DNA of 25,763 bases from a virus (IMGVR_UViG_2778261381_000004:1-25763); one strand, 5' to 3'; counted from the first letter of the stretch, positions 1,497 to 6,364 are shown. Program-made: numbers and translations. Notes: generated by a model not told the origin, from the letters alone.

Positions 1497-1539
1497 GTGC
1501 TTTCCTTTGTTTTTTAAACAAATTGTTTTCTAGTATTAG

Positions 1540-2461: not shown

Positions 2462-4168
2462 TTAATGATTGAGTATTTTATTAACACGCAGCTTATTAAG
2501 TGTTGATTTTGAAGCAACTTCCTCCAAAGCTTCTATTGCTTTATCAGTGATGCTCTTCTGTTCGTCTGTCGGGTGTTGCATACCCTTGAACTTGAGCATA
2601 GTCTCTTCTACTAAATTCAAAGCATCCTGATCACAGGATAATATCCAGTTTACGTAATCATCTTTAGAAAAACTGTTAAGAATATTCACATCACTATGGT
2701 TAAATCTTCCACCAGCTATTTTTTTTATAATTTTATCTAAGTTATAGTCATCTGGATTTCTATCTTTCAATTTTTTTTCAATTCTGAAACCTAATTCTTC
2801 ATTTCCGAAGATCTCTACTCGCAAAGAATTAAATGTAGCATACGCATTGTCTTTATTAACAAAAGCATCTGCATATGCCTCTATAATATTATTACAATCT
2901 CTATCCAATTTGATTAGGACATTTATTAAACCTACGAACTGTCCAATTGGTATACGCAACAGACTATCGTTAATTACGCGCTCAATTTGAAAAATAAACT
3001 CTGATTCATTATCTTTAAAAGAGTTTCTAAAAACATCCCAAATTTTATAAACCTCACATAAAACCCTATTATCTCTATATTGTTCATTTTTTTCTTTTAT
3101 TATATTTAGAATATTGCTTTCAGAAGACACATAACCGTTCTTAAGGTAAAAATCTATATCATCATCGAAAGCACTTTCTGCTCGTTCATAAATAATATCA
3201 AGGCTATTAACAAATGAATATACAGAGTTAACTTCTTCCTTTTCATCTTTATCATCTAACATATAGTCGAATGCATGTATATTTTTGATTGACTCCTTAA
3301 ATGAAGCATAATCAACGCTAGGAACACCAAAATAGTAAACCACTGAAAATAAGACCAATCTATTAATAAAACTTTCTCTAACCTTATCCTCTGCTAACTT
3401 TAGCACATCTCTAAATATAACTAGAGATGATTTTATTTTATTTAATATTCTAATGTTTTTGATGTTTAAATCATTTGCTAGGTTTTTTAACAAAAGAAAA
3501 TCAGGGTCAGTCTCATAAAAAACTTTTCTTAAGTTTTTCTCAGGCGTGGGATCGTATTTTATTTCCACATCAATTATTTTTTCTCTATACTCTAAAAACT
3601 GTTGTTGTGCAGTTTCTTCATGTAAGTTATCTTCATTTAATATTAGAACAACCTTGCAATTTTTTCTTCTTGCCAACTCATCAATTACCCCCATAATCTC
3701 TTTAATTTCTAGCGCACTACCTTTTCGTTCAATATCATCAATGCAAACCAAATAATTATTAACAAATTTATACTCAAGAGATGACAGCAGATTATCAGTT
3801 TTGAACCCAAAAAAATCGTTCTTTCCAAAATGTATTAAAAATTTTGACAAGGAGTTGTATTTCAACCATCCCCAAAACCCATTTCTATAACGAATCATAG
3901 TTCGATCCGTTTCAGATAAAATCAGTTCTTTATATTTCTTTTCATTAATTGGTGTGGCACAATGATAAAGAGCTTTTTTAATGTCTCCAATAGAATTTAT
4001 TCCAAACAAAGAAACATATGAATATGCATTAAAATCTAATTTTTTAGAATGTTTAGTATAAAAGCTATTCCAATAATGCGTTTTACCTACTCCCCAATTT
4101 CCTTTTATGACAGCAACCCGATGATCTGAGTCCAAAAAATTTTTTAAAAATACTTCTATCGATTCCAT
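2462..4168 (-). CDS. KAP-family P-loop NTPase, candidate accessory (moron) or defence gene
   Basis: 568 aa ORF. Walker A GNWGVGKT near the N-terminus and Walker B LVCIDDIER match the KAP NTPase signatures (G-x-W-G-x-G-K-S/T and hhhhDD-x-R). The gene is visibly far more AT-rich than its neighbours. No transmembrane segment is obvious. Confidence 0.6.
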   Translation of the reverse strand: MESIEVFLKNFLDSDHRVAVIKGNWGVGKTHYWNSFYTKHSKKLDFNAYSYVSLFGINSIGDIKKALYHCATPINEKKYKELILSETDRTMIRYRNGFWGWLKYNSLSKFLIHFGKNDFFGFKTDNLLSSLEYKFVNNYLVCIDDIERKGSALEIKEIMGVIDELARRKNCKVVLILNEDNLHEETAQQQFLEYREKIIDVEIKYDPTPEKNLRKVFYETDPDFLLLKNLANDLNIKNIRILNKIKSSLVIFRDVLKLAEDKVRESFINRLVLFSVVYYFGVPSVDYASFKESIKNIHAFDYMLDDKDEKEEVNSVYSFVNSLDIIYERAESAFDDDIDFYLKNGYVSSESNILNIIKEKNEQYRDNRVLCEVYKIWDVFRNSFKDNESEFIFQIERVINDSLLRIPIGQFVGLINVLIKLDRDCNNIIEAYADAFVNKDNAYATFNSLRVEIFGNEELGFRIEKKLKDRNPDDYNLDKIIKKIAGGRFNHSDVNILNSFSKDDYVNWILSCDQDALNLVEETMLKFKGMQHPTDEQKSITDKAIEALEEVASKSTLNKLRVNKILNH

Positions 4169-4190
4169 TGGTGTCTATCCTTCAACTCAT

Positions 4191-4217
4191 ATATTGGGCG
4201 TAACAAACGCCCAATAT
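4191..4217 (-). promoter_or_regulatory. Stem-loop between the ParG-like gene and the KAP NTPase gene
   Basis: Seen in sequence: perfect 10-bp inverted repeat ATATTGGGCG (4191-4200) / CGCCCAATAT (4208-4217) with a 7-nt loop. No U-tract follows on the coding strand, so it is not a canonical terminator. Confidence 0.4.
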
Positions 4218-4219
4218 AA

Positions 4220-4579
4220 TCACCCTTTCTTCATCAACTCGCGTTTAATTTCATCGGTACGCATCGTGACATCGGCAGCTGTGATCGCCTCGTTAAGTTT
4301 CACGATGTCCTCGATTTCCTGCGGTGTCTTCTCCGCAAGATGGAAAATAGCAGCACGAATCACGTCAGAACGAGTGAACTTCTCGAAGCGAGGGATGAAC
4401 TTCATCATCTCCAGCAGTTCGAAGTATTCGTCCTCCAGTGACATTGTGCGGCTTTTAATTTTCTCTTTGCCACGAGTCGGGCGTCCCTGTGGTCTGACTG
4501 GTTGGCGCAAAGGAGTTGTGTTCTTAGCCGGTGCATCAGGCTCTTTGCGCTTTGCTAGGTCACCCATTTTCATGGACAT
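4220..4579 (-). CDS. Small partition protein, ParG-like centromere-binding protein (possible ribbon-helix-helix)
   Basis: 119 aa ORF whose start overlaps the parA stop. Basic, Pro-rich N-terminal tail followed by a short structured C-terminal region. Function assigned mainly from its position directly after a small ParA, as in type Ib partition systems. Confidence 0.5.
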   Translation of the reverse strand: MSMKMGDLAKRKEPDAPAKNTTPLRQPVRPQGRPTRGKEKIKSRTMSLEDEYFELLEMMKFIPRFEKFTRSDVIRAAIFHLAEKTPQEIEDIVKLNEAITAADVTMRTDEIKRELMKKG

Positions 4580-5247
4580 TATTCTTCTTCCTCCAGACTC
4601 AACAGATAATCTACAAATTCTTCAAACTCGGCTTCCGCCTTTTTGTCGCGCTCGCTACCGGTCATTTCAAAGATAGAACGACCAGACTCTTCCGCATCAT
4701 CATAGACGTTGCGGTTATATAGATTGACTGGCGCAGACTCGATGCCAAACGTCTCAACAATCTCTTTAGCCGCCAGAATGCGAGACACTTGTGATGGCAA
4801 AGCCGGGCACTGGTTCATGACCGCGCGGACCTTCACTTTATCGTTTACATTACGAACATTGTCGATAATAGGATCGATGTCACGCAGAGATTTCAAATCA
4901 CGACGCTTAGGACGAAGCGGGATAATGATAACGTCGGCCATCAGCATCGCTTGTCGCTGAATTTCGGAGTCAAAGCCACCAGCATCTACCACTACAAACT
5001 CAGCTCTACCCTGAAGCGATTTTAGGTGCTTAATGATGTCATCCTGAACGTATGCAAAAGGAATCAGCTCAAGGTCTTCGTTCTGTCGACGGTCTTCACA
5101 CCAGCTTGTTGTCGTGCGCTGAATATCTATATCAGTGATATAAACCTTCTTCTTCTTTTTGACTTTCAGGCAAACGGCAATTTGCTGGGCAACGGTGGAT
5201 TTGCCAGGCCCGCCCTTTGTGCCGCCAACCACAAAGATCTTGGTCAT
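4579..5247 (-). CDS. parA: ParA-family partition ATPase, small type Ib (ParF-like)
   Basis: 222 aa ORF. Deviant Walker A GGTKGGPGKST (KGGxxK[ST]) close to the N-terminus. Size and lack of an N-terminal HTH fit type Ib ParA. Confidence 0.8.
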   Translation of the reverse strand: MTKIFVVGGTKGGPGKSTVAQQIAVCLKVKKKKKVYITDIDIQRTTTSWCEDRRQNEDLELIPFAYVQDDIIKHLKSLQGRAEFVVVDAGGFDSEIQRQAMLMADVIIIPLRPKRRDLKSLRDIDPIIDNVRNVNDKVKVRAVMNQCPALPSQVSRILAAKEIVETFGIESAPVNLYNRNVYDDAEESGRSIFEMTGSERDKKAEAEFEEFVDYLLSLEEEE

Positions 5248-5299
5248 TGGAGAGTTCCCTTTGCGTCTATTATTATCGTCTGAAACAACTTGTTTTCTT

Positions 5300-5490
5300 A
5301 TATGTGATATAGCCTAAATGCCTACGGCTACGGTGTAAAGGTTAAATGGTAGGTTGTGGTTAACAATTGGCAATCATAGCTTGTATTTGTCTGTTGAAAA
5401 AAGTAACAATGACCTCTATATTACAAGTACGGTGATATGCCGTACACAATTTGATAATGCACACGTAATGGGCTATAGCCTTTTAAAGTA
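5300..5490. promoter_or_regulatory. Divergent control region between parA and the toxin-antitoxin operon (candidate centromere/operator repeats and promoter)
   Basis: Seen in sequence: tandem CTACGGCTACGG (5322-5333); TACGGTG at 5329-5335 and again at 5428-5434; inverted repeat GTACGG (5427-5432) / CCGTAC (5440-5445); perfect palindrome GGCTATAGCC (5471-5480) overlapping a sigma70-like -35 TTGATA (5451-5456), 17-bp spacer, -10 TATAGC (5474-5479). Confidence 0.35.
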
Positions 5491-5565: not shown

Positions 5566-5835
5566 ATGTCAGCACTAAAAAAGCAGCGCATCGATTTGAG
5601 ATTAACCGATGACGATAAAAGCATCATCGAGGAAGCTGCCGCAATGTCTAACCAGAGCATTACTCAGTTTATGGTTAGCAGTGCATCTGAACGTGCCGTG
5701 AAAGTTATAGAGCAACACCGTAGACTAGTTCTGAATGAAGAATCCTGGAATCTGGTTATGGACGCTATAAGCAATCCTCCGGCACCGAACGACAAGCTGA
5801 AACGAGCTGCTGATCGTCTGAAAAGCATGGAGTAG
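5566..5835 (+). CDS. DUF1778 (TacA/AtaR-like) antitoxin
   Basis: 89 aa from the ATG at 5566, which has a GGAGG 5 nt upstream; the longer ORF from 5527 lacks a well-placed RBS. Sequence RIDLRLTDDDKSIIEEAAA...FMV...RLVLNEESWNLVMDAISNPPAPN resembles antitoxins that pair with GNAT toxins. Confidence 0.8.
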   Translation: MSALKKQRIDLRLTDDDKSIIEEAAAMSNQSITQFMVSSASERAVKVIEQHRRLVLNEESWNLVMDAISNPPAPNDKLKRAADRLKSME

Positions 5836-5842
5836 TTTACTC

Positions 5843-6364
5843 GTGAGCAATACAACGATAGAGATTTTCTCTGGAGAGAAAGATTATGATCTAAACGGTT
5901 TTGATTGCGGCGAAGAGTCACTAAACGCCTTTTTAGCCAACCACTTAAAAAGGCAGCATGAGGGAAAAATTCTTCGTGCTTATGTGCTTTGCACTCAAGA
6001 AGAAAGGCCAAAAGTGTTAGGATATTACACTTTGTCAGGTAGTTGTTTTGAAAAGGAGTCCTTACCTTCAAGAAGCAAACAAAAGAAGGTTCCTTATCGG
6101 AATGTTCCAAGTGTTACTTTGGGTAGGCTGGCTTTGGACAAGTCCCTTCAAGGTCAAGGATTTGGCTCAATGCTTGTAACACATGCAATGCGCGTTGTGT
6201 ACAATGCATCTCTTGCTGTAGGCATTCATGGACTTTTCGTTGAGGCGTTAAATGACAAAGCCAAGGCGTTTTATAAAAGTTTAGGCTTTATCCAGCTGGT
6301 TGGTAACAACGAGCGTTCTTTGTTCTATCCTACAAAATCTATCGAAAAATTGTTCGAAGAATAA
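5843..6364 (+). CDS. GNAT-family acetyltransferase toxin (TacT/AtaT-like)
   Basis: 173 aa with a GTG start 8 nt after the antitoxin stop. FDCGEESLNAFL and TLGRLALDKSLQGQGFGSMLV match the conserved motifs of tRNA-acetylating GNAT toxins. Confidence 0.8.
   Translation: MSNTTIEIFSGEKDYDLNGFDCGEESLNAFLANHLKRQHEGKILRAYVLCTQEERPKVLGYYTLSGSCFEKESLPSRSKQKKVPYRNVPSVTLGRLALDKSLQGQGFGSMLVTHAMRVVYNASLAVGIHGLFVEALNDKAKAFYKSLGFIQLVGNNERSLFYPTKSIEKLFEE

What the first reader, a model, noticed from the sequence alone, without database searches (positions are those of the whole stretch)
4220..5490. Type Ib partition module with no integrase in view, suggesting an extrachromosomal phage-plasmid
A small ParA with a deviant Walker A (GGTKGGPGKST) is followed by a small basic protein whose start overlaps the parA stop, the classic ParF/ParG-type arrangement. 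Upstream are short direct and inverted repeats (CTACGG CTACGG, TACGGTG twice, GTACGG / CCGTAC) that could be centromere or operator sites. Next to it are a toxin-antitoxin pair and a full tail module, and no integrase or attachment site is visible in 25.7 kb. Together this suggests the element is maintained as a low-copy plasmid prophage.
Basis: partly seen in the sequence, partly recalled or inferred. Interest (0 to 1): 0.55.

Follow-up and report, generated by a model that had tools for sequence, protein, structure and literature searches.

The report
Partition genes of a known phage-plasmid

Summary
The two genes are real and lie on the minus strand. parA (4579-5247, 222 aa) has a deviant Walker A motif, and its best solved relative is ParF. 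A 119-aa basic protein (4220-4579) starts inside the parA stop codon (TAATG).

The window is 100% identical to a 112.6-kb circular E. coli plasmid of the SSU5 phage-plasmid group, and its par region is 98.4% identical to phage-plasmid Cyrano. Cyrano has been shown experimentally to sit at about 5.5 copies per cell and to make virions. In 5,426 complete E. coli genomes the module occurs 267 times, always on plasmids. The phage-plasmid reading is therefore supported, but already known.

Three corrections:
- The replicon does carry a tyrosine integrase, about 15 kb outside the window.
- The upstream repeats are no more than chance would give. GTACGG/CCGTAC most likely belongs to the neighbouring tacAT operator. 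CTACGGCTACGG lies in the -35/-10 spacer of the par promoter.
- The small protein has no detectable similarity to ParG, and a ribbon-helix-helix fold could not be confirmed.

The likely cis site is a 107-bp upstream block that is more conserved than the genes. The par leader also carries a palindrome (AAACAAnTTGTTT) present 16 times on the plasmid. It follows the phage backbone rather than the par genes, which suggests partition is tied to a phage-wide regulator.

The parts
4579..5247 (-). parA: a small (222 aa) Walker-type partition ATPase with no N-terminal DNA-binding domain (type Ib architecture)
   Evidence: Translation shows KGGPGKST. Pfam hits are MipZ, AAA_31 and CbiA. Best PDB relative is ParF, E 1.2e-10, 24.7% identity over 182 positions. 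NCBIfam ParA_partition gives E 1.9e-33 but scores below its curated cut-off. PHROG 164 'ParA-like partition protein' gives E 4e-51.
4220..4579 (-). Gene for the putative centromere-binding partner ('ParG-like', 119 aa). It has a conserved N-terminal MGDLAK motif, a basic low-confidence tail, then a strand-helix-helix-like core (residues about 41-81) and two further helices.
   Evidence: Start overlaps the parA stop. It always sits directly downstream of a small ParA, down to 31% identity. Invariant residues are I41, R44, S47, E49, R70, D72, R75. AF2 models. No Pfam or PDB homologue was found. Only 18 representatives exist among 1.84 billion proteins. It is expressed 9x above background in Cyrano lysogens, as CYRAN_29 (PMC9928086).
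5248..5354 (-). Conserved par control region: leader, promoter and the most likely operator/centromere. This is the upstream limit of the mobile par module.
   Evidence: Homology with SSU5, Klebsiella and many E. coli relatives stops at about 5354. The 95-bp core is at least 90% identical in 720 of 728 plasmids. The whole module is below 90% identical in 501 of 712 plasmids.
5311..5339 (-).
   Evidence: Read from the multi-clade alignment. The same TTTACA-17-TAGGCT arrangement sits upstream of the distant parA in L021. It falls below the threshold of the consensus scan, so it is an inference.
5283..5295 (.). Palindrome AAACAAnTTGTTT in the par leader (extended form GAAAACAAGTTGTTTC). It is one copy of a phage-wide regulatory site, not a par-specific site.
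   Evidence: Two copies in the window against 0.13 expected. Sixteen on the whole plasmid against 0.25 expected, each just upstream of an operon. Retained in pMT1, which lacks this par system. Absent near distant ParA/ParG-like pairs.
5427..5445 (.). GTACGGTGATATGCCGTAC palindrome, most likely the TacA/TacAT operator and not part of par.
   Evidence: Lies outside the conserved par block, immediately after the best promoter match for tacAT (TTGAAA-17-TATATT, 5394-5422). A similar palindrome accompanies a diverged tacAT in L006 and is absent from relatives without tacAT. K. pneumoniae TacAT operators are GTAC...GTAC palindromes (bioRxiv 10.64898/2026.09.23.753711).
5566..6364 (+). tacA (5566-5835) and tacT-like GNAT toxin (5843-6364): a divergently transcribed toxin-antitoxin pair and a second, independent maintenance function.
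   Evidence: Pfam TacA1 E 8.6e-26 and GNAT domains. RefSeq annotation. The orthologues in Cyrano are transcribed 35-60x above background in lysogens (PMC9928086).

Best explanation
This is the active-partition cassette of an SSU5-group phage-plasmid, bounded at window 4220-5354.

Shown:
- A small ParF-like Walker ATPase gene is translationally coupled to a small basic protein gene.
- The pair is conserved as a unit.
- The element is a circular plasmid prophage and is not found integrated in any complete E. coli genome.

Inferred from established knowledge of type Ib systems (TP228 ParFGH, pB171 par2, pSM19035 delta/omega):
- Dimers of the small protein bind the conserved 107-bp region upstream of parA. 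That region serves as both operator and centromere.
- The protein's flexible basic N-terminal tail, with the invariant GxL-K motif, stimulates ATP hydrolysis by nucleoid-bound ParA.
- The resulting ParA gradient moves plasmid copies apart before division.

The adjacent TacAT pair adds post-segregational killing. The par leader also carries one copy of a palindrome found upstream of about 15 other operons of the phage backbone. Partition-gene expression is therefore probably also under a phage-wide regulator, possibly the HTH repressor encoded next to the integrase.
For: - Gene anatomy.
- ParA family.
- Conserved ParA-partner synteny in 13 loci, down to 31% identity.
- Upstream block more conserved than the coding sequence.
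- Complete circular replicon with RepB and virion genes.
- 267 of 267 E. coli occurrences on plasmids.
- Among 712 plasmid records, 680 are non-mobilizable and about 100-120 kb long.
- Cyrano copy number, virion production, and expression of the small gene in lysogens: PMC9928086.
- SSU5 group recognised as phage-plasmids, with parA used as a marker: PMC7969092 and bioRxiv 10.1101/2025.09.12.675607.
- Palindrome statistics and distribution.
Against: - No experiment on this par system was found in the searched literature.
- The partner protein shows no significant similarity to ParG or to any ribbon-helix-helix protein by sequence, profile or fold.
- No repeat array typical of type Ib centromeres could be defined. 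The only short motif shared by all clades is the palindrome half-site.
- ParA scores below NCBIfam's curated equivalog cut-off (115.7 against 180 bits).
- A chromosomally integrated plasmid carrying the SSU5 repB-parA region has been reported in S. Agona (bioRxiv 10.1101/2025.09.12.675607).
Confidence: 0.8

Rival explanations
1. The small protein is a global regulator, like omega of pSM19035 or KorB of RK2. It would bind the AAACAAnTTGTTT palindromes, making the 16 dispersed sites both operators and a dispersed centromere.
For: The palindrome is the only element of the par upstream region conserved in all SSU5-like clades, and so are the putative DNA-reading residues of the small protein. A 9-13-bp palindrome is a plausible target for a ribbon-helix-helix dimer or tetramer (general knowledge of MetJ, Arc and CopG).
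Against: pMT1 has the SSU5-like backbone but a type Ia parAB and no homologue of either protein. It still keeps 6 sites at the homologous positions, against 0.15 expected. Two distant ParA/partner pairs keep the same invariant residues but have no such palindrome within 6.6 kb, including their par leaders. The motif therefore follows the backbone, not the par genes.
Confidence: 0.1
2. The small protein is a RelE/ParE-type toxin, as annotated for CYRAN_29 in phage Cyrano. ParA would then have no dedicated partner here.
For: The deposited annotation of OV696614.1 and Table 1 of PMC9928086.
Against: None of 13 family members hits a RelE/ParE Pfam model, even at E = 10, and there is no PDB hit. 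The AF2 models are helical with a disordered basic N-terminus, not the alpha/beta RelE fold. The gene is translationally coupled to parA, and no antitoxin-like gene pairs with it.
Confidence: 0.03
3. The ParA-like ATPase and its partner do something other than plasmid segregation. Possibilities include positioning phage DNA during lytic growth, interfering with host division as MinD or MipZ do, or purely regulating transcription.
For: The top Pfam hit is MipZ, and some RefSeq records name the protein 'division plane positioning ATPase MipZ'. No functional data exist for this system.
Against: The best full-length solved relative is the plasmid partition protein ParF. The module lies on low-copy 100-120-kb plasmids that need active partition. 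It is expressed in the lysogenic state (PMC9928086). It also moves as a cassette, with or without tacAT, onto other plasmids.
Confidence: 0.07
4. The element is an ordinary integrating prophage, and the window simply misses its integrase and att site.
For: The replicon encodes a Phage_integrase-family protein about 15 kb from parA. An integrated repB-parA-bearing plasmid has been reported in S. Agona (bioRxiv 10.1101/2025.09.12.675607).
Against: None of the 267 E. coli occurrences is chromosomal. The matching records are closed circular plasmids with their own RepB initiator. Cyrano replicates as an episome (PMC9928086). P1 also carries a tyrosine recombinase (Cre) without integrating (established knowledge).
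Confidence: 0.02

Closest known systems
SSU5-group phage-plasmids (Salmonella phage SSU5, pHCM2, E. coli Cyrano/pLF82, p09EL50, pTIC)
   Same: Near-identical sequence: 100% to NZ_CP151018.1 and to MF554642.1 over the region, 98.4% to Cyrano, 86% to SSU5. Gene order is the same: helicase, par, lysis, tail. The ParA is the same and is already annotated as a partition protein and used as a typing marker (PMC7969092; bioRxiv 10.1101/2025.09.12.675607).
   Different: Only the accessory genes flanking the par cassette differ. This variant has a low-GC KAP NTPase downstream of the small gene and tacAT upstream. SSU5 has neither.
ParF-ParG-parH of Salmonella plasmid TP228 (type Ib partition)
   Same: A small ParA without an N-terminal DNA-binding domain (24.7% identical to ParF, E 1.2e-10). 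It is followed by a small protein with a flexible basic N-terminal tail. Control DNA lies upstream of the ATPase gene.
   Different: The partner is 119 aa rather than 76 and has two extra C-terminal helices. It shows no detectable similarity to ParG (hhalign probability 0.1). No array of short boxes like the ACTC tetramers of parH was found.
delta-omega of pSM19035 and KorA/KorB of RK2 (partition proteins that are also global regulators)
   Same: The par promoter shares a short palindrome with many other operons of the same replicon.
   Different: Here the shared site follows the phage backbone and persists without the par proteins. The global regulator is therefore probably a different protein.
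P1 ParAB-parS and N15 SopAB (partition systems of the classic phage-plasmids)
   Same: The same biological role in a plasmid prophage.
   Different: Those are type Ia systems, with a large ParA carrying an N-terminal HTH and a large ParB with a downstream or dispersed centromere. This one has the small-ATPase, small-partner layout.

Membership tests
Type Ib (small ParA) plasmid partition systems | Deviant Walker A motif KGGxxGK[ST] | tested here: met
   KGGPGKST at residues 11-18.
Type Ib (small ParA) plasmid partition systems | ATPase of about 200-230 aa without an N-terminal HTH domain, related to characterised small ParAs | tested here: met
   222 aa. The alignment to ParF runs from residue 9 to 199 against ParF 8-189, E 1.2e-10. 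No HTH domain in Pfam.
Type Ib (small ParA) plasmid partition systems | Reaches NCBIfam's curated equivalog threshold for ParA_partition (NF041546) | tested here: not met
   115.7 bits against a cut-off of 180, although E is 1.9e-33 over the full profile length. It is a related subfamily, not the curated equivalog.
Type Ib (small ParA) plasmid partition systems | Small centromere-binding protein gene immediately downstream, co-inherited with the ATPase | tested here: met
   TAATG overlap. The same pairing is seen in every relative examined, down to 31% identity.
Type Ib (small ParA) plasmid partition systems | Centromere made of short repeats next to the operon | tested here: inconclusive
   A strongly conserved 107-bp upstream block exists. 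No repeat array was found. The tandem CTACGG pair is imperfect in most relatives and is only marginally unusual (7% of shuffles).
Type Ib (small ParA) plasmid partition systems | Stabilises an unstable replicon; ATPase stimulated by the partner | not testable with these tools
   Needs stabilisation and ATPase assays.
ParG / ribbon-helix-helix centromere-binding proteins | Sequence or profile similarity to ParG or to RHH families | tested here: not met
   Pfam gives no hit for 13 members at E up to 10. hhalign against ParG (sequence checked against 1P94) gives probability 0.1. PDB profile searches give only E 1.4 to the RHH protein ORF56. NCBIfam aCcr1 (RHH) gives E 2e-4 at 21 bits, below the cut-off of 60.
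ParG / ribbon-helix-helix centromere-binding proteins | Strand-helix-helix fold that dimerises | tested here: inconclusive
ParG / ribbon-helix-helix centromere-binding proteins | Flexible basic N-terminal tail | tested here: met
   Residues 1-44 have pI 11.4. pLDDT is below 50 for residues 1-3, 6-22 and 31-33. The N-terminal motif MGDLAK is conserved.
SSU5-group phage-plasmid | Circular extrachromosomal replicon with its own initiator plus a complete siphovirus gene set homologous to SSU5 | tested here: met
   NZ_CP151018.1 is circular, 112,650 bp, with RepB, terminase, portal, capsid, tail and lysis genes. Identity to SSU5 is 86% over par. All 267 E. coli occurrences are plasmid-borne.
SSU5-group phage-plasmid | Produces infectious virions and is maintained as a plasmid | not testable with these tools
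   Shown for the close relative Cyrano (PMC9928086) and for SSU5 itself, not for this sequence.
RelE/ParE toxins (database annotation of the Cyrano orthologue) | Match to RelE/ParE family models or fold | tested here: not met
   No Pfam, NCBIfam or PDB match. The predicted structure is helical.
TacAT (DUF1778 antitoxin / GNAT toxin) type II toxin-antitoxin systems | TacA-family antitoxin followed by a GNAT acetyltransferase | tested here: met
   PF08681 E 8.6e-26; GNAT domains E 5e-8.

The most novel reading that the evidence does not exclude
The 119-aa protein founds an uncharacterised, very narrow family of centromere-binding proteins: 18 representatives among 1.84 billion proteins, all next to small ParAs in phage-like contigs. 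Its target would be the ultra-conserved 107-bp block. In SSU5-group phage-plasmids the par promoter would also have been brought under a phage-wide operator present about 16 times on the genome. Plasmid segregation would then be switched together with replication and packaging genes at the lysis-lysogeny decision.
Probability: 0.3. Interest if true: 0.45.

Novelty: already known. Interest (0 to 1): 0.2.

Why it matters
SSU5-group phage-plasmids are common in clinical E. coli, Klebsiella, Salmonella Typhi and Shigella, and they carry resistance genes. Their stable inheritance depends on this cassette, yet the cassette has never been dissected.

In public records the partner protein is labelled 'hypothetical' or, wrongly, 'RelE/ParE toxin'. 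Correcting that label, delimiting the cassette (4220-5354) and its conserved control DNA, and pointing out the phage-wide palindrome give concrete targets. These could serve curing, incompatibility typing and regulation studies.

As a discovery, it confirms what is already known.

Tried and rejected
1. I tried to prove a ribbon-helix-helix fold for the small protein. I used Pfam, NCBIfam, PHROGs, PDB sequence and profile searches, hhalign against ParG, two AF2 models (full length and core) and three fold searches. Nothing was significant, so the fold stays an inference.

2. I looked for a centromere repeat array. I used the repeat finder, k-mer sharing across four clades, and the region downstream of the small gene. 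The only shared k-mers are the palindrome half-sites. The downstream DNA is not conserved, and in SSU5 the next gene abuts the stop codon.

3. I considered the AAACAAnTTGTTT palindrome as the par operator or centromere. I rejected it as par-specific because it occurs 16 times on the plasmid, persists in pMT1 without these par genes, and is missing near distant ParA/partner pairs.

4. I considered GTACGG/CCGTAC and the second TACGGTG as par sites. I rejected both: they lie beyond the cassette boundary, next to the tacAT promoter, and co-occur with tacAT.

5. I considered the two ParB N-terminal-domain proteins near the terminase as the real partner. I rejected them: they are 33 kb away, belong to the packaging region, and are also present in pMT1, which has its own ParAB.

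6. An exhaustive profile search for distant relatives of the small protein found only 18 proteins, none annotated.

Full report
**What is in the sequence**

The reported interval holds two co-directional genes on the minus strand.
- parA (4579-5247) encodes 222 aa beginning MTKIFVVGGTKGGPGKST, which is a deviant Walker A motif.
- The next ORF (4220-4579) encodes 119 aa. Its ATG shares one base with the parA stop codon (GAA TAA TG TCC).
- RefSeq annotators start this second gene two codons later, so the overlap depends on the start chosen.
- The small protein has pI 9.56. Its first 44 residues are strongly basic (pI 11.4) and the rest is acidic.

Divergently upstream lie a TacA/DUF1778 antitoxin (5566-5835, Pfam E 8.6e-26) and a GNAT toxin (5843-6364). 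Further right come spanin, endolysin and holin genes and a complete lambda-like tail module. To the left are a KAP-family NTPase, a 249-aa protein and a DnaB-like helicase.

**What the element is**

- The window is 100% identical over 24.9 kb to E. coli plasmid p19KM1803_1 (NZ_CP151018.1, 112,650 bp, circular).
- The par region is also 100% identical to pTIC (MF554642.1), 98.4% to phage Cyrano (pLF82) and 86% to Salmonella phage SSU5.
- The complete plasmid has a RepB-family initiator, terminase, portal, capsid, tail and lysis genes, tRNAs and many DNA-metabolism genes.
- In PLSDB the par region matches 712 plasmids of Klebsiella, Escherichia, Enterobacter, Salmonella and others. Of these, 680 are predicted non-mobilizable.
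- In 5,426 complete E. coli genomes the module is found in 263 genomes at 267 places, all on plasmid records and none on chromosomes.

SSU5-like elements are an established phage-plasmid group, and their parA and repB are used as screening markers (PMC7969092; bioRxiv 10.1101/2025.09.12.675607). Cyrano was measured at 5.5 copies per chromosome. It makes virions, and ciprofloxacin induces it 39-fold (PMC9928086).

One correction is needed. The replicon does encode a Phage_integrase-family protein about 15 kb left of parA, next to a small HTH 'putative repressor'. Integration is never seen in E. coli, so a role in multimer resolution, as for Cre in P1, is the natural inference. This was not tested. 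A chromosomally integrated plasmid carrying the SSU5 repB-parA region has been noted in S. Agona (bioRxiv 10.1101/2025.09.12.675607).

**The ATPase**

- Pfam gives MipZ, AAA_31 and CbiA hits.
- The best solved relative is ParF of TP228 (E 1.2e-10, residues 9-199, 24.7% identity).
- NCBIfam's ParA_partition model matches end to end (E 1.9e-33) but below its curated cut-off.
- PHROG 164 'ParA-like partition protein' matches at E 4e-51.
- The size, the lack of an N-terminal DNA-binding domain and the ParF relationship place it among the small, type Ib-style ParAs.

**The partner protein**

It has no Pfam, NCBIfam or PDB relative.

The family is tiny. A word-indexed search of 5.8 billion proteins found 25 clusters. 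An exhaustive profile search of 1.84 billion representatives found 18.

Every member whose context I could read sits directly after a small ParA. This includes two distant ones (40% and 31% identity) in other phage-like contigs.

The alignments show four regions:
- a conserved N-terminal motif (MGDLAK, GGLGK);
- a variable basic linker;
- an invariant segment I-x-S-R-T-x-S-x-E-D-E;
- a second conserved segment (F/L)-(T/S)-R-S-D-V-x-R-A-A.

AF2 gives an extended stretch followed by two helices for this core, then two further helices. Confidence is only moderate, with pLDDT 66-72. The layout and the position of the invariant residues look like a ribbon-helix-helix protein with a flexible ATPase-stimulating tail, as in ParG or omega. 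However, every formal test was negative or sub-threshold:
- hhalign against ParG gave probability 0.1 (ParG sequence verified);
- the RHH protein ORF56 scored E 1.4;
- the RHH family aCcr1 scored 21 bits against a cut-off of 60;

I therefore call it ParG-like in position and architecture only.

The Cyrano record labels the orthologue 'RelE/ParE putative toxin'. Nothing supports that label. The same paper shows the gene is transcribed 9-fold above the prophage background in lysogens (PMC9928086), which fits a maintenance gene.

**The cis-acting DNA**

Homology with relatives that carry different neighbours begins at about 4213-4224 and ends at about 5354. The par cassette is therefore 4220-5354. 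In one 140-kb plasmid it is found with tacAT between IS elements on a different backbone.

The 107 bp upstream of parA are more conserved than the genes. A 95-bp query is at least 90% identical in 720 of 728 plasmids. The whole module is below 90% identical in 501 of 712 plasmids.

Aligning several clades suggests a promoter: TTTACA (5334-5339), a 17-nt spacer, then TAGGCT (5311-5316). The same arrangement precedes the distant parA of L021.

But the second copy is imperfect in most relatives, and the element is not conserved in the more distant clades.

- GTACGGTGATATGCCGTAC (5427-5445) lies beyond the cassette boundary.
- It directly follows the best tacAT promoter match.
- A similar palindrome recurs with a diverged tacAT in a Kluyvera relative.
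- It resembles the GTAC...GTAC operators shown to bind TacAT in K. pneumoniae (bioRxiv 10.64898/2026.09.23.753711).

No repeat array typical of known type Ib centromeres could be defined. The conserved block as a whole is my best candidate for the combined operator and centromere.

**A phage-wide palindrome in the par leader**

The one element of the par upstream region conserved in all SSU5-like clades is GAAAACAAnTTGTTT (5283-5295).

It is not specific to par:
- The window has a second copy in front of the helicase gene (1516-1528), giving 2 sites against 0.13 expected.
- The whole plasmid has 16 copies within one mismatch, against 0.25 expected.
- All but one (80007) lie in an intergenic leader a few dozen bases upstream of a start codon. 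These include the leaders of the terminase, helicase, nrdB and many small early genes.

Yersinia pMT1 shares the SSU5-like backbone but uses a type Ia ParAB and has no homologue of either protein here. It still keeps six copies at corresponding places, against 0.15 expected. The two distant ParA/partner pairs keep the same invariant residues but have none within 6.6 kb.

The motif therefore follows the backbone, not the par genes. Most likely it is the operator of a backbone regulator. The HTH repressor next to the integrase is conserved in pMT1 and is a candidate, but this is speculation. The practical reading is that par expression is wired into the phage's own regulatory circuit.

**Mechanism**

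The gene pair, its conservation as a unit, the plasmid state of the element and the expression of the partner gene in lysogens are shown.

The rest is inferred by analogy with ParFGH, pB171 par2 and delta/omega:
- The partner binds the upstream block as a dimer or higher oligomer.
- It represses its own promoter.
- It uses its N-terminal tail to trigger ATP hydrolysis by nucleoid-bound ParA.
- Plasmid copies are then driven apart.

TacAT adds post-segregational killing.

**Verdict**

The finding is sound and its interpretation is right, but it describes a well-known class of element and an already annotated ParA. What is not in the literature I could search:
- the identification of the 119-aa protein as the probable centromere-binding partner, now labelled hypothetical or toxin;
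- the limits of the cassette and its ultra-conserved control DNA;
- the phage-wide palindrome.

These are modest, testable additions rather than a new kind of system.

Noticed in passing
window 1516-1528 and 5283-5295; NZ_CP151018.1 at 3217, 18719, 33272, 37039, 67529, 67554, 76671, 77435, 78338, 78822, 80007, 80685, 80736, 93477, 94206, 104429: The palindrome (G)AAAACAAnTTGTTT occurs 16 times on the phage-plasmid against 0.25 expected. All copies but one (80007) lie in a leader just upstream of an operon, mostly 9-14 nt after a -10-like hexamer. It is conserved in all SSU5-like loci examined and in Yersinia pMT1. It is probably the operator of an unidentified phage-wide regulator.
   Followed up: partly
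window 2462-4168 (minus strand): A KAP-family P-loop NTPase (568 aa) has 28-31% GC against 45-50% in the flanks. It matches the PADLOC candidate defence system PDC-S49 (E 2e-21). It is present in only a minority of relatives, inserted directly after the par cassette. SSU5 and others carry different genes there (DUF2971, GIY-YIG), so this is an accessory or defence hotspot.
   Followed up: partly
window 4190-4218: A perfect 12-bp inverted repeat, TATATTGGGCGT / ACGCCCAATATA with a 5-nt loop, lies between the stop of the small par gene and the KAP NTPase start. It has no T-tract and sits at the junction where homology with most relatives begins. It could be a terminator, or regulatory DNA brought in with the insertion.
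   Followed up: no
NZ_CP151018.1 19256-20740 (outside the window); Cyrano CYRAN_44/45; pMT1 87222-88706: A tyrosine integrase gene overlaps tail-to-tail with a 128-aa HTH 'putative repressor'. The pair is conserved across the SSU5 backbone, including pMT1, although the element is not found integrated in E. coli. Possible roles are multimer resolution and lysogeny control.
   Followed up: partly
L023 2502-2861 (Cyrano CYRAN_29, OV696614.1 29975-30334): The orthologue of the small par protein is annotated 'RelE/ParE putative toxin' and is listed as a toxin moron in PMC9928086. No family or fold evidence supports this, so it is probably a mis-annotation.
   Followed up: yes
L001 21666-22265 (pTIC, MF554642.1 68461-69060): In pTIC, which is 100% identical across the par region, an aac(6')-Ib-cr resistance gene is annotated where this window has the tacT-like GNAT toxin gene, ending at the equivalent of window 6364. 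This could be a cassette replacement or an annotation artefact. I did not compare the sequences.
   Followed up: no
L006 3025-3108 (Kluyvera sp. contig, between tacA and parA): A tandem array of about ten 7-8-nt units (TTTTCAG / TTTTTCGA) lies in the tacA-parA intergenic region of one relative only. Its function is unknown.
   Followed up: no
L020 (pHH194M-140K, NZ_CP101514.1 83774-86736): A GIY-YIG gene, the par cassette and tacAT lie together between IS3 and IS110/IS3 elements. The plasmid is 140 kb with P1-like features (Phd/Doc, type III R-M). The maintenance cassette can therefore move to other replicons.
   Followed up: partly
L021 4018-4037: A LexA-box-like palindrome, CTGTAATTATATACAG, lies between an S24-peptidase gene and the distant parA homologue in an unrelated phage-like contig.
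   Followed up: no
NZ_CP151018.1 73270-73794 (L003 28270-28794): A backbone gene annotated as hypothetical matches Pfam Flag1_repress (FljA-like repressor of phase-1 flagellin) at E 1.5e-84. This is an unexpected host-interaction gene on the phage-plasmid.
   Followed up: no
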